In this document: positions 3,115 through 31,094 of the stretch, piece by piece
Numbering within the stretch: position 1 is the first letter of the stretch
How the letters are laid out: each line of letters opens with the position of its first letter
DNA from: an uncultured delta proteobacterium
GTDB taxonomy: Bacteria > Desulfobacterota > Syntrophia > Syntrophales > Smithellaceae
Assembly: GCA_963753975.1 (NCBI GenBank)
Contig: CAVWEH010000005.1
Span: 544,001 to 608,000 of the forward strand
DNA length: 64,000 nucleotides
Direction of reading: 5' to 3'
The notes under the pieces: model-generated
What the model saw: the letters and a program-made list of their open reading frames with translations, nothing else
Told to the model about the DNA's origin: nothing
The model's database searches: none
Made by a program: the position numbers and the translations under genes

Positions 3115-3176
3115 AAAAGTGAGTTCCAGCGTGAGGGTTTATGCCGTAAATTTGCGGTGTTTGCTATATTAACATA

Positions 3177-3199
3177 GATATGTATAAACAATGTTCGGC
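3177..3199 (+). other. attI-like cassette landing site (GATATGTATAAACAAT-G/TTCGGC)
   Basis: GTTCGGC (3193-3199) is the exact reverse complement of R'' GCCGAAC of the first cassette; upstream motif shared with 30593-30615 and 30894-30916. Confidence 0.65.
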
Positions 3200-3211
3200 A
3201 GGAGTTACGAG

Positions 3212-3658
3212 ATGACAAAACCAAAACAGATTCTACGATGGCTCGCAGTGATACCCGGCGCGGTGCTTGGCGTAGTCATCGTAATGTTTCCGGTGCACTG
3301 GCTTGCCATGTACATTCACCACTTTGGAGCTGGCGAACCAATAATCACCGACGAGCAAGGCAGGGGACTACTCCAGTCTATGCCACTTGAGTCCCTTGAA
3401 AGATTCGGCGACGCGTTGTTCGTAGCTGGCATACTCGTAGGTGTCGGCGCCTTCATAGCTCCACGGTTCCATTTCGCTACAGCCATAGTGCTCACAGTGC
3501 TGCTTATCGGCTCAATGTCGTGGGTATTCGTGCACGCCATTTCCATGGGCATGCAGATCGAGGACTCCCCTGTCCGTATGCTCATCACTGTCATGCTCTG
3601 GTTGGTGAGCACTTTTTTATGCACGCGGGCTCGACAAAGTAGCCGAACAATAGCCTGA
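3212..3658 (+). CDS. Cassette 1: hypothetical membrane protein (about 4 TM)
   Basis: ATG at 3212 with SD GGAG just after the R' core site; hydrophobic segments; stop lies inside the attC. Confidence 0.75.
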   Translation: MTKPKQILRWLAVIPGAVLGVVIVMFPVHWLAMYIHHFGAGEPIITDEQGRGLLQSMPLESLERFGDALFVAGILVGVGAFIAPRFHFATAIVLTVLLIGSMSWVFVHAISMGMQIEDSPVRMLITVMLWLVSTFLCTRARQSSRTIA

Positions 3659-3700
3659 ACGCGATGGTCTAAAGTCTGCGCGTTAGGCTCATCGTTAGAC
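3642..3700 (+). other. attC site (59 bp, canonical)
   Basis: R'' GCCGAAC, 5-bp spacer, L'' CCT(G)AACG with extrahelical base, L' CGTTAGG, 6-bp spacer, R' GTTAGAC. Confidence 0.9.
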
Positions 3701-3714
3701 CTGAAGAGGAATTG

Positions 3715-4236
3715 ATGAACGAAGCCAGTCTCTCAATGATGAGAAATCACGAAATCTTCAGCCTTTTTGCTGAAATCATCGAGGAACTCAGCCGCAGAGG
3801 GGTGACGCGAAGCAAGAACAATCCTGTTGGCGACTATGCCGAGCATCTTGTGTGTAAAGCCTTCGCGCTGACTCCGGCAGAGAAATCAACAAAGGGGTAC
3901 GACGCTACAGATAGCGCTGGAAAGAAATATGAAATCAAAGCCAGACGCAAGGGCACCCGAAGCAATCCCACCCGCTTCAGCGCGATTCGCGATCTTCAGC
4001 ACCGGCAGTTTGATTTTCTCGTAGCCGTTCTATTCTCTCAGGAATTCACCGTCATGCGCGCGGCACTCATCCCCTACGATCTCATTCTAAAGCTCACTTT
4101 TCGTCAAGAACATGTGAACGGCTGGATTCTGCCCGTTCGCGACAGCGTCTGGGCAGCTAATGGCGTGGTGGACGTCACCGCAAAACTAAAAAAAATACAA
4201 AAAAAAGATGAGCGTCCAACGATTACATCAAACTGA
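3715..4236 (+). CDS. Cassette 2: putative PD-(D/E)XK nuclease-fold protein
   Basis: NNPVGDYAE...KGYDA...YEIKAR fits an E...D...ExK restriction-endonuclease-like pattern. Confidence 0.6.
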   Translation: MNEASLSMMRNHEIFSLFAEIIEELSRRGVTRSKNNPVGDYAEHLVCKAFALTPAEKSTKGYDATDSAGKKYEIKARRKGTRSNPTRFSAIRDLQHRQFDFLVAVLFSQEFTVMRAALIPYDLILKLTFRQEHVNGWILPVRDSVWAANGVVDVTAKLKKIQKKDERPTITSN

Positions 4237-4302
4237 TGTGGAATAGCCGCGTCAGGTTAATGCACTGGTGATTTCCCGCGCAGATTATACGAATCGTTGG
4301 AC
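4214..4302 (+). other. attC site (89 bp)
   Basis: Perfect 11-bp terminal inverted repeat GTCCAACGATT...AATCGTTGGAC with degenerate L boxes. Confidence 0.8.
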
Positions 4303-4318
4303 CAAAGGAATTTAACGA

Positions 4319-4927
4319 ATGTCAATATCTTTGGATGAATTTGTAAGTGGGTACGGGGAATTCCAACGACGTGAACGACGAGACGCAATGTACAAAACTG
4401 CCATTTTTCTCGTAAATCACTTTTGGGGCAAGCCAGCAGACATGGCTGATGGTATGGGAGTCCTTCTCCTTACATGGAACCAAGCCTTCTATCGGTATGG
4501 CCCCTTTGATTTCGATAAACTTGAACAAGCTATTGAGTCCAACTTTACTGTAATTGATGGTTTTCATAACAGAAACATTTTGACACTCAGCGCTTCTGAC
4601 GAACTCGCTATCAAGGATTTGTTTGATGAGTTTCTTGACGCCTTGCAGATTGCTGACGGTAAGATGAGGGGCAAAAAAAGTCCTGTTGCTGTGGCAAAGG
4701 CATTGCACCTTCTAGGCCCGGCTTTCTTCACGTTGTGGGACGATAAGATAGCACGGGCATACGATTCTTATTACAAAACCCACCCTGCTGATAGCTACCT
4801 CTCCTTCTCCTACAAGATACAGAACCTAGCCCAACAGATTGGATCACAGGCTTCGATTGGTGGGAAGACTCTCTTGAAGCTCATAGATGAATACAATTAT
4901 GCCAAACACACAAAAGGCTGGATATGA
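4319..4927 (+). CDS. Cassette 3: hypothetical protein, possible helical DNA glycosylase-like fold
   Basis: 202-aa ORF with AKALHLLGPAFFTLWDDKI motif; function is inference. Confidence 0.6.
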   Translation: MSISLDEFVSGYGEFQRRERRDAMYKTAIFLVNHFWGKPADMADGMGVLLLTWNQAFYRYGPFDFDKLEQAIESNFTVIDGFHNRNILTLSASDELAIKDLFDEFLDALQIADGKMRGKKSPVAVAKALHLLGPAFFTLWDDKIARAYDSYYKTHPADSYLSFSYKIQNLAQQIGSQASIGGKTLLKLIDEYNYAKHTKGWI

Positions 4928-4930
4928 ATC

Positions 4931-4985
4931 GTCCACCGAGGCGTTCTATCGGATCGCTTACGCTTTGGTGAATTCGCCGATAGGA
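4931..4985 (+). other. Degenerate attC site
   Basis: GTCCACC-GAGGC-GTTCTATC...GGTGAAT-TCGCC-GATAGGA; core triplets altered (ACC, GAT). Confidence 0.6.
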
Positions 4986-4992
4986 ATACTTC

Positions 4993-5316
4993 TTACTTGT
5001 GCTTCCCTCTCGGTTTCCCACACTCTTTACATTTTCCATCCGGACCAATAATGCCGATACAGGCCTCGTCGCTGCACAACACTCGCTTTTCCCAATCTTC
5101 GTCGGATTCTGTTTCTATTGAAGGAAATGGCTCTTGCTTCTTTATCTTCGCCTTTTTGGCGCTCCTCGTGCTGACTCCCGACGGAAGTTTGCCTTCATAC
5201 GGTTTCCCGCATTCCTTGCATTTGCCGTCAGTGCCAATGGTGCCAATACAGCTTTCATCTCTGCATAGGATTCTTTTTTCCCAATCTTCATTTTCATCAA
5301 AAATTAGTTCCGTCAT
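4993..5316 (-). CDS. Small protein with two tandem Cys4 (putative Zn-binding) repeats
   Basis: DWEKRxLCxDExCIGxIGxDGKCKECGKP occurs twice; SD GGAG before ATG at 5316. Confidence 0.8.
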   Translation of the reverse strand: MTELIFDENEDWEKRILCRDESCIGTIGTDGKCKECGKPYEGKLPSGVSTRSAKKAKIKKQEPFPSIETESDEDWEKRVLCSDEACIGIIGPDGKCKECGKPRGKHK

Positions 5317-5389
5317 GTCCGTCTCCAAAGATTATTAATGACGCTACTTATAACAGCGTCACAATTTTTTCCAGATAGAAAACACTATA

Positions 5390-5416
5390 AGATTTCTCGC
5401 TGCGCTCGAAATGACA
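5390..5416. repeat. Short REP-like palindrome (AGATTTCTCGCTGCGCTCGAAATGACA)
   Basis: Imperfect hairpin; related degenerate copies at 41956-41986 and 48869-48897. Confidence 0.55.
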
Positions 5417-5437
5417 GAGAGGAGGGTTCTTAAATGT

Positions 5438-5645
5438 TATTGCCAAGACGCATGGAAGCTAACGCCTATTTGCGTCGCTTCCCGGTAAGGTAAAGTCTAC
5501 TTTTATTGCGTGTCCTTCGGTTACGCACCCGGTCAAAAGGATACCGAGGCGGCAAGGAGGAGGCTCCGCAGGCGTATTACTAATACGTTGAGGAAGCCGA
5601 CAACGCTGCCAACAAAGGTAGCCAAATGAAGGCGGTCTTGGCAGT
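5438..5645 (+). mobile_element. MITE-like element, family D, abutting the rtcB stop codon
   Basis: TIRs ATTGCCAAGAC (5439-5449) / GTCTTGGCAGT (5635-5645); body matches the inverted copy at 7084-7209 and carries an extra ~80 bp internal segment. Confidence 0.75.
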
Positions 5646-7099
5646 CAGCCTTTTATGCAGGCTATTGATTTTAAGCGTGCTACTTTCTTCGCCAGGCCCG
5701 CATCATGAACAACCTGCACGACATCCTGCAAATTCTTATAAGCTTCCGGGATTTCTTCTTCCAGGGTTCCCTTGCTGCCGGCCATGACCAAAACTCCCTG
5801 TTGGGCCAGTTCCTTCGCAATAGACCGGCCGCGACTGGCTTTGACCGCCTGATGCCGGCTCATCACCCGCCCCGCGCCATGGCAGGCGCTGCCGAATGTC
5901 TCTTCCATCGCTTTTTCCTGACCCACCAATACGTAAGATCCGTGTCCCATATCACCCGGAATAAGCACCGGCTGACCAACGCTTTTATAACGCTCAGCCA
6001 GAGCATCATGGCCGGCGGGAAACGCTCGCGTTGCGCCCTTGCGGTGGACACAAAGTTTTTTCATTTTTCCCTGAATTTTAAAATCCTCTATTTTAGCGAT
6101 GTTATGACAAACATCATAAACCAAATGCATTCCCAATTCCCGCGGGGCCATCCCGAGTGTTTTTTCGAATATCTCCCGCGTACGGTGCATCAGCAGCTGC
6201 CTGTTCGCCCAGGCGTAATTAGCCCCGCACGCCATCGCGGCAAGATAATTTTGTGCACGTGTTGTATTCAGATACGCGCAGGCGAGTTGCCTGTCGGGAA
6301 GCTCGATTTTTGTTTCCTGCATGTGTTTAACCATCAGCGCCAGATAATCATCGCAAATCTGATAACCCAGACCGCGCGAGCCGCTGTGAATCATGACAGC
6401 AATCTGCCCTTTACGCAAACCGAATGCCTGTGCCGCTTTTTCGTCAAATATTTCCTGAACAACTTCAATTTCCAGAAAATGATTGCCGGAACCTAATGTG
6501 CCTAATTGCTGCTTTCCTCTCTCCAGCGCGCGAGCGGACACATGATCCGAGTCAGCTCCGACCATTGCACCGCCATCTTCCGTTGCTTCCAAATCTTCCG
6601 CCAGGCCGAAACCGGTCTTAACGACCCACTTAGCGCCTTCCTCCAAAACCCTTTTTTCGTCTTTCCCCGATAGTTTGACCTGGCCTGTGGAGCCGACACC
6701 GGAGGGGATATGGTGAAATAATGCCGTCGTCAAGTCGCTGATTTTTTCTTTAATGTCGCCTAAAGATAAATTGGTCGCCACCAGACGGCAGCCGCAATTG
6801 ATATCGTAGCCCACTCCTCCCGGAGAAACAATGCCTTCCGTGAGATCAAAGGCTGCGACTCCGCCGATGGGGAAGCCATAACCCCAATGGACATCCGGCA
6901 TAGCCAGCGAATAATTAACAATGCCGGGCAAATGCGCGACATTGGCCACCTGTTTGACGCTTTCATCGTTCTTTAGGATCTGATATATTTTTTCATTGGC
7001 ATAAATAATCCCCGGCACTTTCATTTTTCCCGTTTGAGGCAAAAGCCAGCGATTATCATCTAGGCGTTCAAGCTTTATTTCAGGCCAAGGTGCATTCAT
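5645..7099 (-). CDS. rtcB: RNA-splicing ligase RtcB (archaeal/eukaryote-like long form)
   Basis: MPDVHWGYGFPIGGV, GYDINCG, GSGNHFLE, HSGSRG, HNIAK, HRKGATRA, HGAGR and EEIPEAYK motifs. Confidence 0.95.
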   Translation of the reverse strand: MNAPWPEIKLERLDDNRWLLPQTGKMKVPGIIYANEKIYQILKNDESVKQVANVAHLPGIVNYSLAMPDVHWGYGFPIGGVAAFDLTEGIVSPGGVGYDINCGCRLVATNLSLGDIKEKISDLTTALFHHIPSGVGSTGQVKLSGKDEKRVLEEGAKWVVKTGFGLAEDLEATEDGGAMVGADSDHVSARALERGKQQLGTLGSGNHFLEIEVVQEIFDEKAAQAFGLRKGQIAVMIHSGSRGLGYQICDDYLALMVKHMQETKIELPDRQLACAYLNTTRAQNYLAAMACGANYAWANRQLLMHRTREIFEKTLGMAPRELGMHLVYDVCHNIAKIEDFKIQGKMKKLCVHRKGATRAFPAGHDALAERYKSVGQPVLIPGDMGHGSYVLVGQEKAMEETFGSACHGAGRVMSRHQAVKASRGRSIAKELAQQGVLVMAGSKGTLEEEIPEAYKNLQDVVQVVHDAGLAKKVARLKSIACIKG

Positions 7100-7209
7100 T
7101 CGTCTACCTTTGTTGGCTGCGTCATCGCCTTCTTCAACGTATCAAAATATACGTCTTCGTCGTCTCTTCCTTGCCGTCGCGGTATACTGTTGACTGCATC
7201 TTGGCAATA
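7084..7209 (-). mobile_element. MITE-like element, family D, overlapping the rtcB start
   Basis: TIRs GCCAAGGTGCA (7084-7094) / TGCATCTTGGC (7195-7205); inverted relative to the copy at 5438-5645. Confidence 0.75.
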
Positions 7210-7228
7210 TTTTGATGGAATCCTGTTC

Positions 7229-7645
7229 TCAGACATCGAAAATCACCTTTGCCCTCCAGCCTTCAGCTGCCTTTCTAATGCTTAAATCATGATAGGTCAC
7301 GGCTTTTATTTCTTTCCTTAACTGATGCTTATGCGGATTATACGGCTCTCCCCGCAGCTGCGCAACTATTTGCGTGTCGGACAATTCTAAAAGTTTACAC
7401 TTCTTAACGAGCCATCTTTCCCCGTTAAATAAATAGAGGGCTTCCCGCAGAAAGTTAACCAGAAGGTCTTCTATGTCCGTACCTTTAGCCGCTATAACTT
7501 TTTCGTTAACATTATTCACGCCCGTAAGATCAACAATTAAATCGAAGAGCGCATCAACAGCATTTGCAAAAAGCTCTTTTTTTGCTTTGCCCCATACCTC
7601 GATACCGATGTCGGCAGTATGATTAAGAAGTTTATAGTGCTTCAT
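7229..7645 (-). CDS. Archease
   Basis: HTADIG at the N-terminus and EIKAVTYH...FDV at the C-terminus; adjacent to rtcB. Confidence 0.92.
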   Translation of the reverse strand: MKHYKLLNHTADIGIEVWGKAKKELFANAVDALFDLIVDLTGVNNVNEKVIAAKGTDIEDLLVNFLREALYLFNGERWLVKKCKLLELSDTQIVAQLRGEPYNPHKHQLRKEIKAVTYHDLSIRKAAEGWRAKVIFDV

Positions 7646-7694
7646 AAGCTAACTATAATTAAATCGAAGGCCAAAAACAAGCTTTGCCGACTTC

Positions 7695-7733
7695 AAAAAA
7701 AAGCCCCTTACCGTGGCAGTAAAGAGCTTTTTT
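7695..7733 (-). terminator. Probable intrinsic terminator after gyrA
   Basis: AAAAAAAAGC-CCCTTAC...GTAAAGA-GCTTTTTT imperfect hairpin with A/T tracts on both sides. Confidence 0.6.
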
Positions 7734-7767
7734 AAAAAACGTTTTTATTTACCGACTAATGCCGCTA

Positions 7768-10242
7768 TTATTCATCGTTTTCATCATCGCCAATTGACCC
7801 GTTAACTTCATCTTCCGCCGTCGTGCGGGCAACGCCGACAAGTTTTTCTTTCGCTTCCAGATCGATGAGCTTCACGCCCTGGGTTACCCGGTGATTGACC
7901 GGTATTTCTCCTACTTTCATCCGGATGACTTTACCGCCATCGCTGATAAGCATAATGTGTTCATCGCCTGCCACCTGCAAGACGCCGGAGACATTCCCGA
8001 CTTTGGGTACGATTTTCAAATTAATCGTTCCTTTTCCGCCGCGGCTTTGCAAACGGTATTCCTCAATCGGAGTACATTTTCCAAAGCCTTTTTCGGAAAC
8101 CGTCAGTACAAACGTATCTTTTGCCGGTATATCCACGCCGATGACGGCGTCATCTTTTTTACCCAGATTAATGCCGCGCACGCCTTTCGCCGTCCTCCCC
8201 ATATCACGCACATTATCTTCTTTAAAACGAATGGCCATGCCTCGCCGCGTTGCTAAAAATATATCCTGTTTTCCGGTGGTTAGTTTAACATCAACCAGTT
8301 CGTCACCTTTTTCGATCGAAATGGCAATAATGCCCCCGGAGCGCGGGTTGGAATAAGCGGCTAACTCCGTCTTTTTAATGGTTCCTTTTTTCGTCACCAT
8401 CACCACGTATTTATTGTCAGCAAATTCCCGCACGGGCAGTGTCGCGCTCACGCGTTCACCCGGCCCCAAGTTCACTAAATTGACGATGGCTTTACCTTTG
8501 GCGGCTCGTCCGGCTTGGGGTATTTGATACACTTTCAGCCAGTGTACCTTGCCGGTCGAGGTAAAAATAAGGAGATAGTGATGGGTTGAAGCGATAAAGA
8601 TTTTTTCCACAAAATCCTCTTCTTTCGTCCCCATGCCCATTTTGCCGCGTCCGCCGCGGTGCTGGCTTTTGTAAAGGCTTGCCGCATTCCGCTTGATATA
8701 ACCCGAATGCGTAATGGTCACGACCATATCTTCTTCGACAATCATATCTTCGATATCAATATCCTCGGTACCAGCAACGATTTCGGTACGTCGTTCATCA
8801 CCATAGCGTTCTTTTATTTCGTTTAGTTCGTCGATAATAACCTGCAGGACTTTTTGCTCATCAGCCAAAATTGCTTCGAGTTTGGCCATTAAAACCTTCA
8901 CCTCCGCGTATTCTTCGTCAATTTTCGCCCGCTCCAGTCCGGTCAGGCGCTGCAACCTCATTTCCAGGATTGCTTTAGCCTGGATTTCAGACAGCTTAAA
9001 TTTCTCGCATAATTTTACCGTTGCTTCCTGAGGATTTTTAGACGCTTTAATCAAGGTCACAATAGCGTCGATATTTTTCAGCGCGATGATCAAGCCTTCC
9101 AAAATATGCGCCCGTTCTTTGGCGCGGGCGAGATCGAACCTGGTGCGTCGCACGACAACTTCCCTGCGGAAGGCAATGAATTTTTCTATTATCTCCTTTA
9201 GATTTAATACCTGAGGACGGCCGTCCGTTATCGCCAGCATAATAATGCCAAATGAGCTTTCCATTTGCGTAAACTTGTAGAGCTGATTGAGAATAATCGC
9301 GGAATTCTCGTCGCGTTTTAGATCAATGACGATGCGGATGCCTTCGCGGTCCGATTCGTCGCGCAGATCGGCAATGCCGGCTATTTTTTTATCCCGCACC
9401 AACTCCGATATTTTTTCGATCAGCGTGGCCTTATTGACTTGATAAGGTATTTCCGTGATGACAATTGTTTCTTTGTCATTGCGGGCGTTTTTCTCAATGA
9501 TCGCCCGTGCCCGCGTTTTAATTATGCCGCGGCCGGTTTTATATGCCGAAAGGATCCCTTCACGGCCGTTAATAAAACCCGCTGTAGGAAAGTCCGGTCC
9601 GGGAATATGGCGCATTAATTTTTCCACGGTGATCTGCGGATTCTTGATACAGGCGATGGTACCGTTTATTATTTCCGTCAAATTATGGGGCGGAATATTT
9701 GTGGCCATGCCCACGGCAATGCCGGAAGAACCGTTCAACAACAGCAACGGTATCCGTGTAGCCAAAAGCGACGGTTCCTGTAGAGATTCGTCATAGTTGG
9801 GCACATAATCAACGGTTTCCTTCTCCAGATCAGCAAGAACTTCTTCAGCAATACGCGCCAGTCGTATTTCCGTGTAACGCATAGCGGCGGGAGGATCACC
9901 GTCAATGGATCCAAAGTTTCCCTGTCCGTCAATCAGCATGTAGCGCAAAGAAAAATCCTGCGCCATACGCACCAGCGTGTCATAAACCGCCACATCGCCG
10001 TGTGGATGATATTTGCCGATGATATCACCGACAATTCGGGCGGACTTTTTATAAGCCTTATTATACCGGTTGCCCATCTCATACATGGAAAACAAAACCC
10101 GCCTGTGAACCGGTTTGAGGCCGTCGCGGACATCGGGAATAGCCCTCCCGATAATTACGCTCATGGCGTAATCCATGTACGATTTTTTCATTTCATCTTC
10201 TATATTCACCAGAGTCGGCTTGTGGTGGATATCTTTTTCCAT
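7768..10242 (-). CDS. gyrA: DNA gyrase subunit A
   Basis: KYHPHGD, AAMRYTE and GyrA-box QHRGGRG. Confidence 0.97.
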   Translation of the reverse strand: MEKDIHHKPTLVNIEDEMKKSYMDYAMSVIIGRAIPDVRDGLKPVHRRVLFSMYEMGNRYNKAYKKSARIVGDIIGKYHPHGDVAVYDTLVRMAQDFSLRYMLIDGQGNFGSIDGDPPAAMRYTEIRLARIAEEVLADLEKETVDYVPNYDESLQEPSLLATRIPLLLLNGSSGIAVGMATNIPPHNLTEIINGTIACIKNPQITVEKLMRHIPGPDFPTAGFINGREGILSAYKTGRGIIKTRARAIIEKNARNDKETIVITEIPYQVNKATLIEKISELVRDKKIAGIADLRDESDREGIRIVIDLKRDENSAIILNQLYKFTQMESSFGIIMLAITDGRPQVLNLKEIIEKFIAFRREVVVRRTRFDLARAKERAHILEGLIIALKNIDAIVTLIKASKNPQEATVKLCEKFKLSEIQAKAILEMRLQRLTGLERAKIDEEYAEVKVLMAKLEAILADEQKVLQVIIDELNEIKERYGDERRTEIVAGTEDIDIEDMIVEEDMVVTITHSGYIKRNAASLYKSQHRGGRGKMGMGTKEEDFVEKIFIASTHHYLLIFTSTGKVHWLKVYQIPQAGRAAKGKAIVNLVNLGPGERVSATLPVREFADNKYVVMVTKKGTIKKTELAAYSNPRSGGIIAISIEKGDELVDVKLTTGKQDIFLATRRGMAIRFKEDNVRDMGRTAKGVRGINLGKKDDAVIGVDIPAKDTFVLTVSEKGFGKCTPIEEYRLQSRGGKGTINLKIVPKVGNVSGVLQVAGDEHIMLISDGGKVIRMKVGEIPVNHRVTQGVKLIDLEAKEKLVGVARTTAEDEVNGSIGDDENDE

Positions 10243-10311
10243 TTTACTTCATCCTCTCTAAACGTAAGCGGTTATTTAACGGCTTATTCATCGTGTATTT
10301 GATAGTCGGAT

Positions 10312-13855
<3,544 letters not shown>

Positions 13856-13869
13856 TCCTTCCCCCTTGT

Positions 13870-14012
13870 TTTATATTATTTAATATTATCTTTTCTTATA
13901 TATTAATAATTAGTATTAGTAATAAGACCTGTGTATATGTTAGTAAATGAAAATTTTATAATAAAGACAATAATATATAAAATAATCGCTTGTTTATAAA
14001 TTGCTCTTAGAA
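13870..14012 (-). other. oriC: oriC (dnaA-dnaN intergenic unwinding region)
   Basis: Minus strand reads ATATACACA (DnaA-box-like, 13930-13938), GGTC, then TTA/CTA trio repeats (13904-13925) and an AT-rich tract; a further box TTATAAACA at 13991-13999. Confidence 0.8.
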
Positions 14013-14015
14013 ACT

Positions 14016-15368: not shown

Positions 15369-15380
15369 TATAACAATCCT

Positions 15381-15412
15381 TTATAAACATATTTATCAAC
15401 AACTGTTGATAA
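15381..15412. promoter_or_regulatory. DnaA-box cluster upstream of dnaA
   Basis: TTATAAACA (15381-15389), TTATCAACA (15393-15401) and inverted TGTTGATAA (15404-15412). Confidence 0.7.
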
Positions 15413-15429
15413 GCATTGAAAATTTTACG

Positions 15430-17805: not shown

Positions 17806-17951
17806 GGGCGGTAAATAACAAAAAGACCATATAACGGCAAACAATATTTGTTATTATTGATCCCGTAGCGGGAGCTCTCGGGATAGCGCAGTATGCCGGA
17901 ATATGATACAGATATTGTTACGGGAGGGAAGAAGTGAGGTCGCAGACGAAT

Positions 17952-18671: not shown

Positions 18672-18766
18672 CTTTAGGGGATAGTTCTCATAGGGATTGC
18701 GCATATTAAATTGTGTAGCAATATTTTCCCGGCTTTAAATTGAATACTTTTGGAGGTTTGCAGAAC

Positions 18767-19924: not shown

Positions 19925-19960
19925 GTTATAAGAATATATAATAGGGAGGCAAAAATAAAA

Positions 19961-21163: not shown

Positions 21164-21167
21164 TAGG

Positions 21168-21227
21168 ACTGAATTTAGGAACAAAAAAAGCTGCGATTAG
21201 TAATAGCGCGGCTTTTTTGTTGAGATT
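21168..21227 (+). terminator. Terminator hairpin that is also copy 1 of a ~60-bp direct repeat
   Basis: AAAAAAGCTGCG...CGCGGCTTTTTT; repeated at 28567-28629. Confidence 0.75.
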
Positions 21228-21354
21228 TATTGTATTCGAAAATCAACTTTTATCTTGTTTATTTCAATAGATTGCCGCTTTGTACGGCCAAAGTGCTTCA
21301 TTGACACACAGGGAATTTCTTCCTATACTTTCTTCGGATGATGAGGATATTGGA

Positions 21355-22815: not shown

Positions 22816-22818
22816 AGC

Positions 22819-24189
22819 ATGAGTGGACACATTCTTGTTGTTGATGATGATCAAAGCATGTGTGAGCTGATCGAGGCGGATTTAAGGCACCGCGGTTTTC
22901 AGATATCCTGGTACACCTCCGCAGATAAGGCGTTCCGGGTATTGCAGGATAAGGAATTCGACGTAGTGTTGACCGATCTGCAGATGCCGGACATGGGCGG
23001 AATTGACCTTTGTGACCGTATAGTATCGAACAGGCCCGATATACCCGTCATCGTAATTACGGCATTCGGCAGCCTGGAAACAGCAATCGGAGCGATGCGC
23101 GCAGGAGCGTACGATTTTGTCACAAAGCCATTCGATATGAATATACTGGCTCTCACTCTGGAGCGTGCCCTAAAACACCATTCTCTGCAGGAGAAGGTTA
23201 AAATTCTGAGCGAAGTTGTAGAGCGCACTAAAAATTATGATGAACTGCTCGGGGCGAGCATGCCGATGCAAAATATCTATAATCAACTTTCACGAATAGC
23301 CGATTCCGAATCAACGGTTTTAATTACCGGCGAAAGCGGTACAGGCAAGGAACTTATTGCCAGGGTTTTACACCGGCAAAGCAAACGGAAATCCGGCCCC
23401 TTTGTTGCGATCAATTGTGCGGCATTAACCGAGACACTTTTAGAAAGTGAACTTTTTGGTCATACACGCGGCGCGTTCACCGATGCCCGATCGGCCCGCA
23501 AAGGTCTTTTTCTCCAGGCTGACGGAGGAACACTGCTTCTGGATGAAATCGGCGACTTTCCGTTAACCTTGCAACCCAAGCTTCTTCGCGCATTGGAAGA
23601 ACGTGCTCTTCGTCCGGTCGGGGGGGATATGGAAGTTCCTTTTGATGTAAGAGTAATCGCCACGACGAATCGTGATCTGGAATCAGCCGTAGAAAACAAA
23701 TTGTTTCGCGAAGACCTCTTCTTTCGTATCAACGTTATACAGGTTGAACTGCCTCCTCTTAGTGCGCGGGGAACGGATATTCTGCTCCTGGCGCAGCATT
23801 TCATAGAACAGTTTGCAATGCGGATCGGCAAACAGGTATCGGGTCTATCCAATGCCGTAGCCGAGAAGCTTCTTGATTATGCATGGCCGGGGAACGTACG
23901 AGAATTGAGAAATGCCATCGAACGCGCTGTGGCATTGACACAATATGAAAAACTCGTTGTCGAGGATCTACCGGAGAAAATTCGTTCGTATCGCGGTACG
24001 GATATGATTATCAGCAGTAACGCTGCCGAACTTGTTTCCATGGAAGAAGCAGAGCGGCGTTATATACTTCATGTTCTGAAGGCCGTTGGCGGTAACAAAA
24101 CTCACGCTGCGCGATTGCTGGGTTTCGATCGGAAAACTTTATATCGCAAATTGCAATGTTATGGAGCAATCGGCGACGATAAGGTATAA
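22819..24189 (+). CDS. Sigma54-dependent response regulator (NtrC/ZraR/AtoC family)
   Basis: REC domain, [22 protein letters not shown] and Fis-type HTH. Confidence 0.93.
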   Translation: MSGHILVVDDDQSMCELIEADLRHRGFQISWYTSADKAFRVLQDKEFDVVLTDLQMPDMGGIDLCDRIVSNRPDIPVIVITAFGSLETAIGAMRAGAYDFVTKPFDMNILALTLERALKHHSLQEKVKILSEVVERTKNYDELLGASMPMQNIYNQLSRIADSESTVLITGESGTGKELIARVLHRQSKRKSGPFVAINCAALTETLLESELFGHTRGAFTDARSARKGLFLQADGGTLLLDEIGDFPLTLQPKLLRALEERALRPVGGDMEVPFDVRVIATTNRDLESAVENKLFREDLFFRINVIQVELPPLSARGTDILLLAQHFIEQFAMRIGKQVSGLSNAVAEKLLDYAWPGNVRELRNAIERAVALTQYEKLVVEDLPEKIRSYRGTDMIISSNAAELVSMEEAERRYILHVLKAVGGNKTHAARLLGFDRKTLYRKLQCYGAIGDDKV

Positions 24190-24489
24190 TATTCACGAAT
24201 TCTTAAATAACCTTGTTAATGAGGAAACAGCAATTGCTCGCGGAAACAACAATCACCATATTATAGCAACGTAGCGGGGTTGCTTGCGGCAAACCTGCTT
24301 TATACCGCAGATGTAGTGGACGGCGGGAACCAAAGGGGCATTTGTCTACGGTGCGGCATTATGTCTCTTAAAAGCTGTCCTGCTGGAAGTGCTTATTCGG
24401 GGTTCAAGAAAGCTTTATTTCGTCTTTCCTGCTTTGTATGTATTCATTATCCTTGCAGATTTTAAAATTCAAATCATTTTGCCTTCCCG

Positions 24490-24506
24490 TTGGCATTCTC
24501 TTTGCT
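24490..24506 (+). promoter_or_regulatory. Sigma54 (-24/-12) promoter
   Basis: TTGGCATTCTCTTTGCT; tandem GGCATT(A)TGTCT candidate enhancer sites at about 24336-24367. Confidence 0.75.
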
Positions 24507-24614
24507 TCTTAATCTCTATAAATTAAGTAAGAAATAAAAAAGAGTCGGTTAAACAAATAATTAATTTTGTTCCGCGTGACAAAGCGGCAGAAATTAAAAT
24601 TAAGGAAAGAAAAT

Positions 24615-25067
24615 ATGGCAGAGATGAAAACCCGTAAGGGAACAAAAAATCAATTATTGAGTAAAGTTTCTTTAAAAAAGAAAATCCCACGGATTCTATT
24701 GGCGGAAGATAATCATGACATGCGCAAGCTCCTGGCGATGTCACTGCGCAAAAACGGCTATGAGGTTGCCGAATTTGCCGATGGTCCCAGTATGCTTGAC
24801 CACTATTTTTCCGTTTCTTCTATCCAAAAAGGGGCGGCTTTCGATTTAGTCATCTCCGATGTCAGAATGCCCGGCCTTACCGGTATAGAGATTGTTGAAG
24901 GCATGTATGATCACAAAGGATTTCCTCCGGTAGTTTTGATTACGGCATTTGGTGATGAAGACACACATGCACAAGCGCAGCGCCTTGGGGTTGTAGCTAT
25001 GTTTGATAAGCCTTTTGATATCGACGACCTGATTGCCAAGGTGCAAGAAATAGTGCCTTCTTACTAG
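24615..25067 (+). CDS. Single-domain response regulator
   Basis: ILLAEDN, SDVRMP, ITAFG and KPF. Confidence 0.88.
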   Translation: MAEMKTRKGTKNQLLSKVSLKKKIPRILLAEDNHDMRKLLAMSLRKNGYEVAEFADGPSMLDHYFSVSSIQKGAAFDLVISDVRMPGLTGIEIVEGMYDHKGFPPVVLITAFGDEDTHAQAQRLGVVAMFDKPFDIDDLIAKVQEIVPSY

Positions 25068-25160
25068 TTGTTCCTGTAAATAAGTTGCACGGCTGAATGC
25101 GCTTAGGGATTTTTTGTTTATCGTGCGGTAGAAGGGATAAAACTAAAAGGACAAAGTATA

Positions 25161-25964
25161 ATGAATAAGAAACATAATCTTGGAATTATAAATAAAATTA
25201 AAGTACCAATTCGACCGATAACGATAATCTATGTCTCTATCTTGGCGGCTCTCTATACACTAATTATTTGTACGCCATACCTGATATCCAATGCGACTTT
25301 GCTGAAAAGCCATATCTTCGTCGGGGAAGAATTTGTTGAAGGATTATTGATAAGCGTGCTTCTGGCCATTAGTCTTTTTGTTTTGTCCCGCTACAGAAAA
25401 ATACTTGATAGGTACCGCAGCCAGATTAAAGAATTGGCGATTAAAAAAACAGATGTAGAAAACAAATTGAACGATGCCTTCAAGTATATTGGCGCTGTGA
25501 ATGTCCAGGTTAAGGAAGTTCAATCCTGGTTTTCATCAATCGAAAAATACCCAAAGGATAAGAAAGACTTTAAAAATAGTTTAAATATCTTGGCGCAAAA
25601 GGTTTTATGTGTGGCAAACGCAGAATGGGTCATATTTAGAATCATTAATGTAGATAGTCTCAGAACGTTGCGGGAGTATAGCGGAACAAGGGGGGAAGTT
25701 GTTTTGCTGAAACATAATATTAGCAATAGCTCTATCGTTAATAATGAATCTATAGACAAATGCAGTATTGTAAGCTCTGAGCAGAAAAATTTAACTATTA
25801 AAGTGTTTTGTATCATCCCATCCGAAGCACTGACAGAAACGCAGAAAACTCTTATCAAGACTATCGTCGGCTCATTGGAAATGCTTTTCATTGTTTTTAC
25901 ATCACAATACTTCCGCAAGAGTTATTTCAAGCCAGAGGTTTTCAATCATGCCGGATCGATGTAA
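25161..25964 (+). CDS. Hypothetical membrane protein (2 TM plus coiled coil)
   Basis: 267-aa AT-rich ORF with SD AAGGA. Confidence 0.7.
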   Translation: MNKKHNLGIINKIKVPIRPITIIYVSILAALYTLIICTPYLISNATLLKSHIFVGEEFVEGLLISVLLAISLFVLSRYRKILDRYRSQIKELAIKKTDVENKLNDAFKYIGAVNVQVKEVQSWFSSIEKYPKDKKDFKNSLNILAQKVLCVANAEWVIFRIINVDSLRTLREYSGTRGEVVLLKHNISNSSIVNNESIDKCSIVSSEQKNLTIKVFCIIPSEALTETQKTLIKTIVGSLEMLFIVFTSQYFRKSYFKPEVFNHAGSM

Positions 25965-26033
25965 GTATTTTAGTTATTAAGATAGATGAAATTCATTAGT
26001 TGATGAAATTCAGTAGTTAAGGGAGATATTATC

Positions 26034-27467
26034 ATGGAAAGAAAAAATTTAAGAATTGTTTTAGCCACATTATTCGTATCAATTTTGGTTGTAGCTTCGA
26101 GTTTTATCATCGCCTCATATGGCAACGGTGTTGAAGACGCCGGCGCCATCGTTGGTTTCCCTCAGTCTTTTGCTCAACTTGCCAAACAAGTCACGCCTGC
26201 AGTCGTTAACATCAGTACAACAGCGACTGTCATGGTTCCTGGGAATCCTTTCAAGCAATTTTTTGGTCAACATAATGACCCATTTGAAGATTTCTACGGG
26301 CAATTTTTTGATAATGTTCCAGACAGCAAAATGAAGCAGCAAAGTCTTGGTTCGGGATTCATCGTTGATAAAGAGGGCAACATCATAACCAACAATCATG
26401 TCGTTTCCGGTGCTGATAAAATCGTCGTTAAACTTTCCAATGGTAAAGAATACACAGCAAAGGTAATTGGAAGAGATAGTAAAACGGATTTGGCGCTAAT
26501 CAAAATTTCACCATTTTTTAAAGATATGCCTGCCCTTCCCCTTGGTGATTCCGACAGCATGCGGGTGGGAGACTGGGTGCTGGCCGTAGGAAATCCTTTT
26601 GGTCTGGAGCATACGGTGACACAGGGCATTATCAGCGCATCCGGAAGGGTCATTGGTTCCGGTCCTTATGACAACTTTCTTCAAACCGATGCGCCTATCA
26701 ATCCGGGCAACAGCGGAGGGCCCTTGGTCAATTTGAAAGGAGAGGTGATAGGGATCAACACAGCTATTATTGCATCAGGACAAGGTATCGGATTTGCAAT
26801 TCCCAGCAACACAGCAAAGACAGTCATTGCCCAGCTCAGAGATAAAGGCAAAGTGGTCAGGGGATGGATAGGGGTGTCCATTCAGTCGGTAACCCCTTCT
26901 CTTGCGCCCGCTTTTGGACTCGAAAAACCGGTAGGAGCTCTTGTTGCCGAAGTCGTTCCCGGCGGACCTGCTGAAAAGGGCGGTGTTAAGCAGGGAGATG
27001 TTATAACCTTTTTTGACGGAAAAGACGTGAAATCTTCGTCGGATCTTCCCTGGCTTGTTGCTGAAACGCCTGTGGGCAAGACAGTTGAAGTGAAAGTGTT
27101 GCGTCAGGGCAAAGAGGTGGATCTCAAGGTGACAGTGGAAGAGATGACGGAACAGAGGGTTGCCTCGCAGATGGAGAAACCTCGCCATGATTATGGCCTT
27201 GCCGTTGATAATATAAAGCCTCAATGGAGAAAGAAATTTGCGATCACAGTGCCTTCAGGAGTTGTTGTAACAGATGTGGTATCGGGGAGTCCGGGGGATG
27301 ACGCAGGAATACAGACCGGAGATGTAATCCGGGAAGTGAATAAGAAACCTGTCAAAGATTTAAGTGATTACCGGAAAGAAATAGAAAAAGCGGGGCCTGA
27401 TAAGAGTGTTCTCTTCTTGCTTAATCGGGGCGATCAGGCCTTCTATGTTTCGATCAAGGTGTCGTAA
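26034..27467 (+). CDS. degP: DegP/DegQ (HtrA) periplasmic serine protease with two PDZ domains
   Basis: TNNHVV, DLALIK and INPGNSGGPL. Confidence 0.92.
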   Translation: MERKNLRIVLATLFVSILVVASSFIIASYGNGVEDAGAIVGFPQSFAQLAKQVTPAVVNISTTATVMVPGNPFKQFFGQHNDPFEDFYGQFFDNVPDSKMKQQSLGSGFIVDKEGNIITNNHVVSGADKIVVKLSNGKEYTAKVIGRDSKTDLALIKISPFFKDMPALPLGDSDSMRVGDWVLAVGNPFGLEHTVTQGIISASGRVIGSGPYDNFLQTDAPINPGNSGGPLVNLKGEVIGINTAIIASGQGIGFAIPSNTAKTVIAQLRDKGKVVRGWIGVSIQSVTPSLAPAFGLEKPVGALVAEVVPGGPAEKGGVKQGDVITFFDGKDVKSSSDLPWLVAETPVGKTVEVKVLRQGKEVDLKVTVEEMTEQRVASQMEKPRHDYGLAVDNIKPQWRKKFAITVPSGVVVTDVVSGSPGDDAGIQTGDVIREVNKKPVKDLSDYRKEIEKAGPDKSVLFLLNRGDQAFYVSIKVS

Positions 27468-27542
27468 ATCTTAACGGGTCTTGACAAGAGGAGACCCTTA
27501 ATAAATGCACACAATTTATAAATTTAAAGAAAGGAGAAAAGT

Positions 27543-28091
27543 GTGAAAAGAATAAATTTGTTTTTTGTAGTGATTATTGCTATGCTTAGCACAATTTTCA
27601 TTCTGCTTGCGGGGTGCGCGAAGAAGGAACTGGTAAGCGAAAGTTCAGAGCAGCCGCAAAATGAAATGAAACAAGAAGCGGCAAAACCCAATGTTCCGGT
27701 AACTGAAGAAAAAGCAGTACAACCGGCGAGCGAAAGCGGACAAAAAATTGCGGCAACCGCGGAATTAAAAGACATCCATTTTGATTTTGATAAGTATAAC
27801 CTGCGACCGGAAGATAGAGCAATTTTAAGCACCCATGCCGACTGGCTGCTGAAAAATGCCGACTATAAAGTAAAGATAGAAGGCAACTGTGATGAAAGAG
27901 GAACGGAAGAATATAATATGGCGCTGGGTCAGAGAAGAGCGGATGAGGCTAAAGAATATCTTCTTAATATGGGTATTGCCAAAAAAAGAATTTCCACCAT
28001 TAGTTACGGCAAGGACAGACCTTTAGATCCCGGCCATGATGAAGAAGCGTGGGCAAAAAACAGAAGGGATGATTTTGTACTGAGCAAGTAA
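27543..28091 (+). CDS. pal: Peptidoglycan-associated lipoprotein
   Basis: Lipobox LAGC; DERGTEEYNMALGQRRA, SYGK and AKNRR. Confidence 0.92.
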   Translation: MKRINLFFVVIIAMLSTIFILLAGCAKKELVSESSEQPQNEMKQEAAKPNVPVTEEKAVQPASESGQKIAATAELKDIHFDFDKYNLRPEDRAILSTHADWLLKNADYKVKIEGNCDERGTEEYNMALGQRRADEAKEYLLNMGIAKKRISTISYGKDRPLDPGHDEEAWAKNRRDDFVLSK

Positions 28092-28105
28092 AAGATTAAA
28101 TCGAG

Positions 28106-28148
28106 TGCGTCATCTGCAAATACCAAAAAAGCATTTGCAGATGACGCA
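28106..28148. terminator. Strong hairpin (16-bp perfect stem) downstream of pal
   Basis: TGCGTCATCTGCAAAT / ATTTGCAGATGACGCA; lacks a U-tract, so it may be an mRNA stabiliser. Confidence 0.55.
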
Positions 28149-28186
28149 TAAAGCAGAACCAAACTTTTTATTGGAAAATTCAATAA

Positions 28187-28552
28187 ATGAACTTCAATGA
28201 TGCATCATTATATGTGCTTTTAGGCTTACTCGCCGGATTTTTAAGTGGTCTGATCGGTATCGGCGGCGGAACGATCATCGTACCGGTTTTAGTTCTTTAT
28301 TTTGGTCTTTCACAGAAACTTGCCCAGGGAACCACTTTGGCCATGCTCATACCGCCTGTTGGTATTTTAGCGGCGTGGACATATTATAAGCAAGGCTATG
28401 TTGATTTTTCCATTGCCTTACTGATTTGCCTCGGTTTCATTTTTGGCGGTTTGATCGGAGCTAAACTAGCCACGGGCTTGTCCAACATAATGCTGGAAAA
28501 GATATTTGGCGTCGCCTTACTTATTATTGCGATAAAAATGATTTTTGCGTAG
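28187..28552 (+). CDS. TauE/SafE-family membrane protein (half-size)
   Basis: GLIGIGGG..VP and AQGTTL. Confidence 0.85.
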   Translation: MNFNDASLYVLLGLLAGFLSGLIGIGGGTIIVPVLVLYFGLSQKLAQGTTLAMLIPPVGILAAWTYYKQGYVDFSIALLICLGFIFGGLIGAKLATGLSNIMLEKIFGVALLIIAIKMIFA

Positions 28553-28566
28553 CCAAGCAACTGAAA

Positions 28567-28647
28567 ACTGTATTTAGGAACAGAAAAAAGCCGCGTTTAG
28601 TAATGTAAGCGCGGCTTTTATTTTGGATTGGAATAAGTGTAACGAAT
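28567..28647 (+). repeat. Direct repeat copy 2 (terminator) overlapping a second direct repeat
   Basis: Left part matches 21168-21227; right part GCTTTTATTTTGGATTG..GTGTAACGAAT matches 29917-29949. Confidence 0.8.
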
Positions 28648-28650
28648 GGG

Positions 28651-29847
28651 TTAGATTCTTGCATTGCTGTCACCCGGGGAAATAGCCCGATTGACTGCCG
28701 GAATGCGCCTAATAGCGGCTGTTATGCTCCAGCTTAACGCCAGCGTTCCAATAAATACAATGGTACCTTTCTCTATAGCGGTAAACGTTGTATTAAGAAG
28801 AGCATATTGCAGCCAAATTACGAATACATAATGAATAAGATATATCCCATATGCGTTATTGTGCAGGCTATCGAACACTCTTCTGCGTTTGTTTGCAAAA
28901 CGAAGAAATAGAGAGAGAAAGAAAAGTCCGCTGGCAGCACAGGATAGAATAAAGGCGAAGCCGTAGAGAACTTGCCATGTAGACGATGCAGGGAAGGCAT
29001 AAAATTTTCCGAAGGCAATAATATCGAACAAATAAAATATCAGTGCTGCGACAAACCAGACTGGCCAACGCTTCACCAGCAGGCCATCCCGGGCGAGTAA
29101 ACTTTGATTGATGCCGTAAGCACCAACAGCGAGACCAGCGATGAAGTAGATTGCATACAAGAGCACGCGGCTGGTTTGGACCTGAAAGGGACCAAAACTG
29201 GCCCAGTGATGGTAGCCGAAACTGAACAACATCGGGAAATAGGCGATAGCAGATACAGCCACCAGGACACAAAAAAACAACAGTGGACGCCGCAATGACC
29301 ACAAGAATCTCTTTCCAAGGGCATCGCCCCATCCGGAAATAAACTTTCGCAACAGCACTACAATAAAATTGAACAACAGTAACAAAGACAAAAACCAAAA
29401 AGGGCCACTTGGCCAATAATCAAGAGATATCCATTGCTCCCAGAAGGCGAGAAAACTCGGATCGGCGCCTGTTATCCGATAGGATGGATAGTAGGCAAGA
29501 GGTATCAGGAAAATTACAACTATGGCAAAGGGCAACCCCAGACGCAGACAGCGGTCACGCAGGAATTTGCGATTTCCTTTTCGGGTGAGGCTCGGCCAGA
29601 CAAACAAGCCTGATATGAAAAACAACAGAGCCATGAAAAATTGAGCATTGAATTCGGTGAAGAGATTGAACCCTAACCACCGCTGAGAGTCGATGATCGG
29701 CAAGGCGGCCCAGATATAAGGTTTAGCGGCGAAGGTAGCAGAAGGAGAAGGTATGGAAACCATATACGCCAAGGCTGAATGGTATGCCAGCACCAGTAAG
29801 ATAACGAAAGCCTGCAGATAACCGAGTGCCACATTGTGTTTCTTCAT
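28651..29847 (-). CDS. Acyltransferase-3 family membrane protein (OpgC/MdoC-like)
   Basis: FFMALLFFISG, RCLRLGLP, WFL and YGIYLIH motifs; multi-TM. Confidence 0.85.
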   Translation of the reverse strand: MKKHNVALGYLQAFVILLVLAYHSALAYMVSIPSPSATFAAKPYIWAALPIIDSQRWLGFNLFTEFNAQFFMALLFFISGLFVWPSLTRKGNRKFLRDRCLRLGLPFAIVVIFLIPLAYYPSYRITGADPSFLAFWEQWISLDYWPSGPFWFLSLLLLFNFIVVLLRKFISGWGDALGKRFLWSLRRPLLFFCVLVAVSAIAYFPMLFSFGYHHWASFGPFQVQTSRVLLYAIYFIAGLAVGAYGINQSLLARDGLLVKRWPVWFVAALIFYLFDIIAFGKFYAFPASSTWQVLYGFAFILSCAASGLFFLSLFLRFANKRRRVFDSLHNNAYGIYLIHYVFVIWLQYALLNTTFTAIEKGTIVFIGTLALSWSITAAIRRIPAVNRAISPGDSNARI

Positions 29848-29938
29848 TATTTTGAGCTCCCGTCAGCAGGATATTATGCTAAGTTAATTTAAAATCACAA
29901 ATCAACAAGGCCTACAGCTTTTATTTTGGATTGAAATA

Positions 29939-29994
29939 GTGTAACGAATAATCACCGATGATTGTAAGCCGTCCGGTGGATGTCTTGGTCAGGA
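29939..29994 (-). other. Degenerate attC site
   Basis: Minus strand TCCTGAC-CAAGAC-ATC(C)ACCG...CGGTGAT-TATTC-GTTACAC, 31 bp after the stop of ORF 30026-30553. Confidence 0.65.
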
Positions 29995-30025
29995 AACACC
30001 ATGGCATATTCATTTTTGCATCATT

Positions 30026-30553
30026 TTAGCTGTCAAGGAGCATATCTAGTCTTTTTTCACATTCGTCTAAAATTATCATGGTTTCGTTTGCGGAAGCCAG
30101 AAATTCTTCAAAAGTTATCACTCCCGAAGTCACTGCATTGGTAAAAATAGAAGCAGCTTGTCTTTGTTTTAATTTAACTTCTAAATATCTTTTATATGAT
30201 AGTATTGCTTCTGATAAACGTTTTGGGTTGCCAATAAATCGCTCCCGCAATCTTATGAATTTTTCATTGACTTTTTGCCCATGGGTTTTCGATGCTTTGG
30301 CTTCAGCAATGCGTTCTTTTAATTCACTTTCACTACTATGATCTCTAAAAAATCCATCTTCGGATTCCCATTTCTTTAGATTCTCAACTGCCAATTCAAT
30401 ATCTTTATCTAACATTACTTGTAGCTTATCGTATTTTGATTGAATATCACTAATCAACTTAGCAACAAAGAATGGACGATAAATATATAGGCCGATTTTT
30501 AGTAGAAAATATATAACGATTCCTGAAAGAACAATGATTAAAACGAGGTTCAA
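30026..30553 (-). CDS. Cassette-borne hypothetical protein (N-terminal TM plus coiled coil)
   Basis: Low-GC orphan ORF between a GTTAGAA core site and an attC. Confidence 0.7.
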   Translation of the reverse strand: MNLVLIIVLSGIVIYFLLKIGLYIYRPFFVAKLISDIQSKYDKLQVMLDKDIELAVENLKKWESEDGFFRDHSSESELKERIAEAKASKTHGQKVNEKFIRLRERFIGNPKRLSEAILSYKRYLEVKLKQRQAASIFTNAVTSGVITFEEFLASANETMIILDECEKRLDMLLDS

Positions 30554-30592
30554 ATTGTCCCCCTAATCATATTTGGTAATAAGAAATCTACT

Positions 30593-30615
30593 TTCTAACA
30601 ACGTTTATATGTATC
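30593..30615 (-). other. attI-like site, copy 2 (GATACATATAAACGTT-G/TTAGAA)
   Basis: 15 of 19 bases identical to 3177-3195; precedes a cassette gene. Confidence 0.6.
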
Positions 30616-30657
30616 TTATATCACGGGCATGAAACTTGTCATCAGCAACATACTGGA

Positions 30658-30849
30658 CTAGATGGACATTTTCTTTGGATAGCGCCCGTTATCATCGAGT
30701 TCAGATACATCTATTTCTTTAGCCGTATCCATAAGCGGGGTGCAGCCAAATCTTTTGATGGTTTCAAGAGTTGCCATACGCTTAGAACGAATTATTTGAT
30801 CGGTGACTATATGATAGCCTGTGAAATAATACACAATTATTTTTGACAT
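30658..30849 (-). CDS. Small hypothetical protein
   Basis: 63-aa ORF between two copies of the attI-like repeat. Confidence 0.55.
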   Translation of the reverse strand: MSKIIVYYFTGYHIVTDQIIRSKRMATLETIKRFGCTPLMDTAKEIDVSELDDNGRYPKKMSI

Positions 30850-30893
30850 AATCAAATTTCTTTATTTACTACCCTTTGTTGCAAACTGGCGTA

Positions 30894-30916
30894 TTCTAAC
30901 AATGTTCATCTGTATC
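30894..30916 (-). other. attI-like site, copy 3 (GATACAGATGAACATT-G/TTAGAA)
   Basis: 20 of 23 bases identical to 30593-30615. Confidence 0.6.
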
Positions 30917-31094
30917 ACGGGTATGAACCCTGATTCAGCAGCACGCTGCAGGGTATCATACTCGTGCTTATGCGGGATCAATTCCACTTGCGCTTCAAAC
31001 TTCGCTTTGTTCGTTTTACCACGGCGCTATGCGCCTAGTATAATTCGTCCAGCAAACTTCAGTGCACTTTGTTTCTGAAGTTTGGGTCTCATTA
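30914..31094. repeat. Composite palindromic repeat (families B+A)
   Basis: ATCACGGGTATRAACC...GATTCMGCRGCA..TRCRGGGTAT...TGCTTATG...CAAACTTC..GAAGTTTG..TCATTA, co-linear with 52194-52328. Confidence 0.75.

What the first reader, a model, noticed from the sequence alone, without database searches (positions are those of the whole stretch)
3133..30930. Dispersed, integrase-free cassette landing sites: a conserved attI-like motif tied to a palindromic repeat
Seen: three sites share GATAYRKATRAACRWT-G/TT. They are 3177-3199 (+), 30593-30615 (-) and 30894-30916 (-); site 1 vs 2 is 15/19 identical and site 2 vs 3 is 20/23. Each lies directly before an orphan gene, and for two of them the gene ends in an attC. 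Each is preceded by a GTTYATR(C)CCGTRA motif (about 3136-3149, 30620-30635, 30914-30929), which is also the end of a dispersed palindromic repeat whose copy at 52194 has no cassette. Known: integrons normally have one attI next to intI, and stray cassettes at secondary sites share little more than GWT. Inference: this genome has a multi-copy attI-like site, possibly spread with the repeat, that is loaded in trans by a remote IntI, in effect a distributed integron.
Basis: partly seen in the sequence, partly recalled or inferred. Interest (0 to 1): 0.85.

Follow-up and report, generated by a model that had tools for sequence, protein, structure and literature searches.

The report
Scattered integrase-free integron landing sites
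These are real copies of the docking site that integrons use to capture genes, scattered at many places in this bacterium and its relatives without the enzyme gene beside them, and they kept swapping genes after that gene was lost, which suggests one integron working from a distance over many sites.

Summary
The motif is a genuine attI. In the 10 family genomes with the matching integron integrase and readable downstream DNA, it lies 157-171 nt past intI (reverse-oriented integron); 0 of 18 other IntI loci have it there. Site 1 is 53/63 identical to such a native attI. This genome has about 11 copies and no intact intI. The unit occurs in 59 of 116 family genomes; 47 of 60 fetched copies lack intI. 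Of 50 solo copies, 28 precede an attC; 18 of those 28 show an exact cassette junction (shuffle mean 1.3). Two sister genomes share one intI-less junction yet carry different cassettes, so IntI acted in trans. The palindromic repeat is not the carrier: it inserts into attI, and 44 of 47 repeat ends lack a site. Site 2's attC is only a vestige. A second integron class's attI is scattered likewise. No assay was run. The scan had noted the repeat before, not the attI copies. Verdict: new variant of integron/CALIN.

The parts
3133..3199 (+). Site 1: solo attI (left arm plus core); crossover after G3193. The upstream hairpin and spacer of the native unit are deleted.
   Evidence: 53/63 identical to native attI of G009; BLAST 87-88% over 61-65 nt to intI-linked copies; alignment
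3194..3694 (+). Cassette 1: ORF 3212-3658 (no Pfam or NCBIfam hit) plus attC 3642-3700
   Evidence: R'' 7/7 complementary to the junction
3695..4296 (+). Cassette 2: ORF 3712-4236 (DUF6998) plus long attC 4214-4302
   Evidence: Pfam PF22522; fold z -3.6; CM weak, 11 bits
4297..4990 (+). Cassette 3: ORF 4319-4927 plus decayed attC from 4931
   Evidence: R'' 6/7 by eye; does not fold better than shuffles
2341..3114 (+). Left flank: 4Fe-4S gene, conserved next to the site in relatives
4993..7099 (-). Right flank: small Cys-rich gene and rtcB
30894..30916 (-). Site 3: attI core, crossover after G30900; 5 bp shorter than the G011 orthologue; left arm lost
30914..31131 (-). Nested hairpin repeat (short-end variant) inserted into the attI of site 3
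   Evidence: G011 keeps the attI left arm upstream of the same repeat
30658..30849 (-). Truncated 63-aa ORF, remains of the first cassette at site 3
   Evidence: longer homologues in G003 and G010; no attC seen
30593..30634 (-). Site 2: attI core (crossover after G30599) preceded by about 14 nt of a repeat right end; second attI in the same array
   Evidence: G011 also has two attI at this locus
29939..30598 (-). Cassette at site 2: ORF 30026-30553 plus vestigial attC 29939-29994
   Evidence: same right junction in G002 and G011
52186..52380 (-). Repeat copy with no attI (control)
61490..61518 (+). Solo attI-like site of a second integron class (type D), followed by cassette-like ORFs 61539-62141 and 62256-62855 and a weak attC 62177-62239
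   Evidence: this attC is weak (12 bits, fold z 0.07) and R'' does not match

Best explanation
The sites are intI-less copies of the cassette platform of a reverse-oriented Smithellaceae integron. The native unit is about 190 bp: last codons of intI, a hairpin, an AT-rich spacer and attI. Shown: homology to native attI, many loci per genome, exact cassette junctions, and different cassettes at shared intI-less loci. Inferred: platforms were seeded repeatedly, partly as whole integrons that then lost intI and partly as units already lacking it. They persist because they stay IntI substrates and probably express the first cassette. An IntI encoded elsewhere (the lexA-linked copy where it survives, or a visiting one) inserts and excises cassettes at G|TT by ordinary attC x attI recombination. 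In this genome no intact IntI remains, so the arrays are dormant. The hairpin repeat is a later insertion into attI and at most a passenger.
For: Core 157-171 nt past 10 of 10 cognate intI, 0 of 18 other IntI loci. At most one cognate intI locus per genome, in 15 of 116 genomes, next to lexA in 10 of 12 loci, against the unit in 59 of 116 genomes. 47 of 60 fetched copies have no intI sequence upstream. 28 of 50 solos have a same-strand attC within 2 kb, none on the other strand; R'' exact in 18 of 28, shuffle mean 1.3, max 8 of 10,000. Site-1 locus in 11 genomes: no IntI, one shared cargo gene pair only. G011 and G013 share the intI-less left junction (283/301) and the right junction but no cassette; G008 and G009 likewise at another locus. 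One intI-less junction occurs at two loci of G061 (96.3% over 268 bp); solos match native units at 95-96.5% over 168-172 bp with unrelated DNA upstream. Solos are not one clade (p-AU 1.9e-33).
Against: No recombination assay. No intact IntI in G000, nor in G011 or G013, whose lexA loci hold no integron, so the enzyme that acted is not identified. 22 of 50 solos show no attC. Several solos keep intI fragments, and whole integrons sit at two non-lexA loci, as a decay model predicts. The 60 copies were picked by score, not at random. The attC model was trained on 15 attCs from some of the same loci. A sigma-70 scan found no forward promoter in the native spacer. The sharp left edges could reflect selection on a conserved block or gene conversion.
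Confidence: 0.7

Rival explanations
1. Integron graveyard: each site is a whole integron that landed, filled its array with its own intI, then lost intI and froze; nothing happens in trans.
For: intI crumbs at C4:123072 and the lexA locus C4:155k. IntI tails or 5'+3' fusions in relatives. One type D solo keeps the start of intI. Multiple origins on the tree. intI loss is a recognised CALIN origin (PMC4889954, passages).
Against: Sisters with one shared deletion junction differ in all cassettes at exact G|TT junctions. The site-3 repeat insertion is shared by four genomes with different cargo. The same intI-less junction is at different loci. No genome of 116 shows two cognate intI loci.
Confidence: 0.2
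2. One reading: the palindromic repeat carries or creates the attI-like site and spreads it.
For: Four G000 sites touch a repeat end. One short-end repeat variant occurs twice in G000, both times with a core, at two loci. Repeat-plus-core recurs in other genomes.
Against: The attI left arm lies upstream of the repeat in 3 of 6 cases scanned and in two more read by eye, so the repeat went into attI. 44 of 47 right ends have no core. Site 1 has no repeat. The 60 full units were found with a repeat-free model.
Confidence: 0.05
3. The motif is a promoter or protein-binding site, or chance similarity around GWT secondary (attG) insertions.
For: AT-rich and located before genes. Some exact 19-mer matches in other taxa (for example Bacteroidota) lack the rest of the unit. 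attG needs only GWT (bioRxiv 2022.09.11.507474, passages).
Against: Fixed position behind one IntI clade, 65-190 bp of homology ending exactly at G|TT, and R'' complementarity.
Confidence: 0.03

Closest known systems
CALIN and SALIN (PMC4889954; bioRxiv 2022.09.11.507474; passages read)
   Same: Cassettes with attC and no nearby intI; small arrays; use by a distant IntI is suggested in these papers.
   Different: They are defined without an attI, and attI is said to be unknown for most integrons. Here each array starts with a full or near-full copy of the native attI, not a GWT attG site.
Xanthomonas integron at ilvD plus CALINs at seven other loci (bioRxiv 2025.06.18.660453; passages read)
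   Same: One intI locus per genus, often inactivated, with extra arrays at conserved distant loci.
   Different: The passages seen describe no attI at those CALINs and stress frozen arrays. Here orthologous intI-less loci carry different cassettes.
Reverse-oriented integrons of Treponema (PMC3607928) and archaeal integrons with attI downstream of intI (PMC9668308); passages read
   Same: intI is transcribed toward attI and the cassettes.
   Different: The Treponema paper states one attI per integron and calls the intI-less remnant static.
Delta-attI-type cassettes of class 1 and 2 integrons (PMC12901181; passages read)
   Same: attI copies inside arrays that IntI can recombine, like sites 3 and 2 in tandem; similar core geometry (AAC, 3 nt, GTT).
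   Different: Those are short attI pieces replacing an attC within one mobile integron, not chromosome-wide platforms.
IMU and other MITE-flanked defective class 1 integrons (PMC3184786; passages read)
   Same: A defective integron moved as cargo by small repeats.
   Different: IMUs flank the integron; the hairpin repeat here sits inside attI. A separate repeat (box X) may flank some modules, untested.

Membership tests
attI site | Homologous to the site next to a bona fide intI | tested here: met
   TIGR02249 463.6 bits, cut-off 265; core behind 10 of 10 cognate intI; site 1 53/63
attI site | Crossover at G|TT with variable cassette sequence after it | tested here: met
attI site | First cassette's attC R'' complements the bases after the crossover | tested here: met
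   18 of 28 exact. G000, 11 sites: 5 at 7/7, 3 at 6/7, 1 at 5/7 (site 2), 2 with none (site 3, C2:28263)
attI site | Recombined by IntI | not testable with these tools
   needs an assay
complete integron | intI adjacent to attI | tested here: not met
   no IntI in the site-1 region; none over cut-off in the genome
complete integron | Pc promoter | tested here: inconclusive
   no forward sigma-70 match in the native spacer; that spacer is deleted at site 1
CALIN | Two or more attC, no nearby intI | tested here: met
   site 1 array, attC at 3642 and 4214; not met for sites 2/3, which have one vestige
attG insertion | Target shares only GWT, no attI | tested here: not met
   long homology to native attI
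MITE-mobilised integron (IMU type) | Repeat copies flank the integron | tested here: not met
   hairpin repeat is inside attI
MITE-mobilised integron (IMU type) | Flanking by another repeat (box X) and a mobilising enzyme | tested here: inconclusive
   box X upstream of many solos and, weakly scoring, downstream of a few arrays; no enzyme identified

The most novel reading that the evidence does not exclude
Smithellaceae run a distributed integron: intI-less attI platforms of two integron classes move between loci as non-autonomous modules (possibly exchanged at the box X repeat or at the hairpin), are kept under selection, and are loaded in trans by one SOS-linked or visiting IntI. Many CALINs and SALINs elsewhere would then be live landing pads with unrecognised attI sites.
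Probability: 0.4. Interest if true: 0.85.

Novelty: new variant of a known kind. Interest (0 to 1): 0.7.

Why it matters
Where CALINs come from and whether they stay active is an open question, partly because attI cannot usually be recognised. Here the native attI is known, is present in dozens of intI-less copies, and shows turnover after intI loss, so trans loading can be tested with defined sites and a defined enzyme. It also breaks the one-attI-per-integron picture for two integron classes in one family. Five searches listed no paper on dispersed solo attI sites or on integrons in this family; the library lacks most subscription papers and no supplements were read.

Tried and rejected
Rfam: no match in the window. 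A first heuristic attC scan was noisy and was replaced by a covariance model; the genome search with it scored 150 of 426 candidates. No Y1 transposase (PF01797) in G000. A fixed left boundary at one GAT for all solos: not held, boundaries fall at that GAT, at the hairpin, or within box X. An empty-site junction for the G009/G012 solo could not be fixed, the relatives being too diverged. G013 lacks the whole sites-2/3 block, but whether that is the ancestral empty state or a deletion is unclear. Promoter scan uninformative. Sequencing runs: no RNA holder listed; three low-share contig sets gave no cover of site 1 and no joint there. Two weak PWM hits (C5:54971, C5:381459) were left out of the 11 sites because no unit or attC was seen. 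One viral contig holds a unit without intI; a single case, not used as evidence. Earlier-findings searches by words and sequence returned nothing.

Full report
Observation. The window is G000:C5:544001-608000. Site 1 heads a three-cassette array. Its first attC is strong and its R'' complements the junction exactly; the second folds well (z -3.6); the third is decayed. Site 2's gene ends in a vestige only, and site 3's ORF is truncated.

What the motif is. G000 has no IntI over the curated cut-off, only a C-terminal crumb directly before one copy of the motif and a smaller crumb behind lexA. Relatives have intact genes. Among the 30 best loci, 12 belong to one IntI clade (69-100% identity to the query). 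The 10 with downstream DNA all carry the core 157-171 nt past intI on the same strand; the other 2 end at a contig edge. None of the 18 more distant IntI loci has it downstream. So the motif is the attI of a reverse-oriented integron, an arrangement known from Treponema and Archaea (passages). Ten of the 12 loci are next to lexA. Record titles and tree labels place the family in Smithellaceae.

Copy number. I count 11 credible copies in G000, three in the window, after dropping two weak hits. Nine G000 loci have model-supported attC sites (150 of 426 candidates scored). Six start with this motif, two with the second attI type described below (one of them degenerate), and one with neither. The roughly 190-bp unit is found in 59 of 116 family genomes, a lower bound because six candidates were scored per genome. 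The cognate intI appears in 15 of 116, at one locus each. Of 60 distinct full units that I fetched, chosen by score, 47 have no intI sequence upstream, 42 of them with at least 1 kb of flank.

Cassette signature. Of 50 solo sites with at least 1.4 kb downstream, 28 have a same-strand attC within 2 kb and 22 have none; no hit lies on the opposite strand. In 18 of 28 the four variable bases of R'' complement the junction exactly, against a shuffle mean of 1.3 and a maximum of 8 in 10,000. For intI-linked sites the figures are 5 of 5 and 4 of 5. The model was trained on 15 attCs from some of these loci, chosen by stem pairing and folding, not by R'' match.

Activity after intI loss. The site-1 locus was read in 11 genomes. 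None has IntI there, and only one cargo gene is shared, by two genomes. The attI is clear in G000, G009, G011, G013 and G014, eroded in G002, G006 and G007, and not evident in G003, G008 and G012. G011 and G013 share the intI-less left junction (283 of 301 columns) and the right junction, yet carry one and two cassettes with none in common. G008 and G009 show the same pattern at another locus, both with exact R''. At site 3 the same repeat insertion is shared by G000, G002, G010 and G011 with different cargo. Exact gains or losses at G|TT after a shared loss of intI are best explained by IntI in trans; this is inference. Against a simple picture, G011 and G013 have no IntI now and no integron at lexA, so the enzyme was a since-lost or visiting one.

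How the sites spread. Both routes leave traces. Decay of whole integrons: intI tails, fusions and crumbs and intact integrons at two non-lexA loci. Movement without intI: one intI-less junction at two loci of G061, 96.3% over 268 bp, with related copies in three more genomes; and solos 95-96.5% identical to native units over 168-172 bp from the hairpin, behind unrelated DNA. Solos do not form one clade. Loot et al. report that attI donors hardly recombine with genomic sites while attC donors do (passages), so if IntI moved these units it more likely did so on circles that also carry an attC; I did not test that. A separate dispersed repeat, box X (21 G000 hits at E 0.01 or better; reversed-genome control 2 hits, at E 3.3 and 4.1), precedes many solos and follows intI in 3 of 32 other IntI loci. 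It is a candidate carrier or exchange site only.

The palindromic repeat. It is an abundant nested hairpin family, 139 merged BLAST loci in G000, already noted by the scan. Three of 47 right ends abut a core; site 2's variant end makes a fourth outside that filter. Where both sides survive, the repeat sits at one TA inside attI with the left arm upstream (3 of 6 scanned cases; two more by eye). One repeat variant is found twice in G000, both times inside an attI, which suggests the composite was copied once. It is a hot-spot insertion and passenger, not the carrier.

Independent replicate. A second motif with 11 copies in G000, one at window 61490, matches the site upstream of a different, classically oriented IntI clade in seven loci. 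One G000 copy has an exact cassette junction; most show no clear attC.

Known and new. Site 1 meets the CALIN definition and is not a complete integron. Trans use of CALINs is suggested in print (passages) and attI pieces inside arrays are known (passages). Dozens of dispersed near-complete attI platforms with turnover after intI loss were not listed in five searches; I saw listings and passages only, no supplements. Verdict: new variant of a known kind, interest 0.7; the fully live distributed integron has probability about 0.4.

Noticed in passing
window 61490-61518 (+); G000 C2:4241, 42483, 264959, 320214, 526478, 606716; C4:72797, 265601; C5:668245; C1:85053: Second multi-copy solo attI family (type D) matching the site upstream of a long N-terminally extended IntI clade that G000 lacks.
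   Followed up: partly
G000 C1:30234, C2:436873, 586260, 714508, 715153 and others: Box X: a dispersed 70-110 bp repeat, 44 hits at E 5 or better, often tandem and between accessory genes; no enzyme known.
   Followed up: partly
window 29917-29946 and 28611-28644 (-): A direct repeat of about 30 bp flanks the acyltransferase gene 28651-29847; relatives have one copy and no such gene at this locus.
   Followed up: partly
G000 C1:80200-85100 (-): Largest array in the genome, six attC hits, bracketed by box X copies.
   Followed up: partly
G000 C4:154318-157300 (+): lexA followed by an intI crumb, an attI and three attC: the decayed native integron locus.
   Followed up: yes
L280:5788-5850, L110:5257-5319, L315 near 1203: A very short, apparently ORF-less cassette recurs in first position after attI in several relatives.
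   Followed up: no
L150, L192, L212, L247 (Aminicenantes); L157, L176, L268 (Myxococcota); L189, L207, L263 (Syntrophales): The same core recurs outside the family, some in two or three copies per genome and some with attC downstream.
   Followed up: no
L379 (viral contig): A unit without intI within 1.5 kb on an IMG/VR contig.
   Followed up: partly
window 5532-5633 and 7092-7194: Inverted repeat arms flank rtcB.
   Followed up: no
G000 C4:307540-307920: Five tandem 94-bp copies of a hairpin-repeat module.
   Followed up: no
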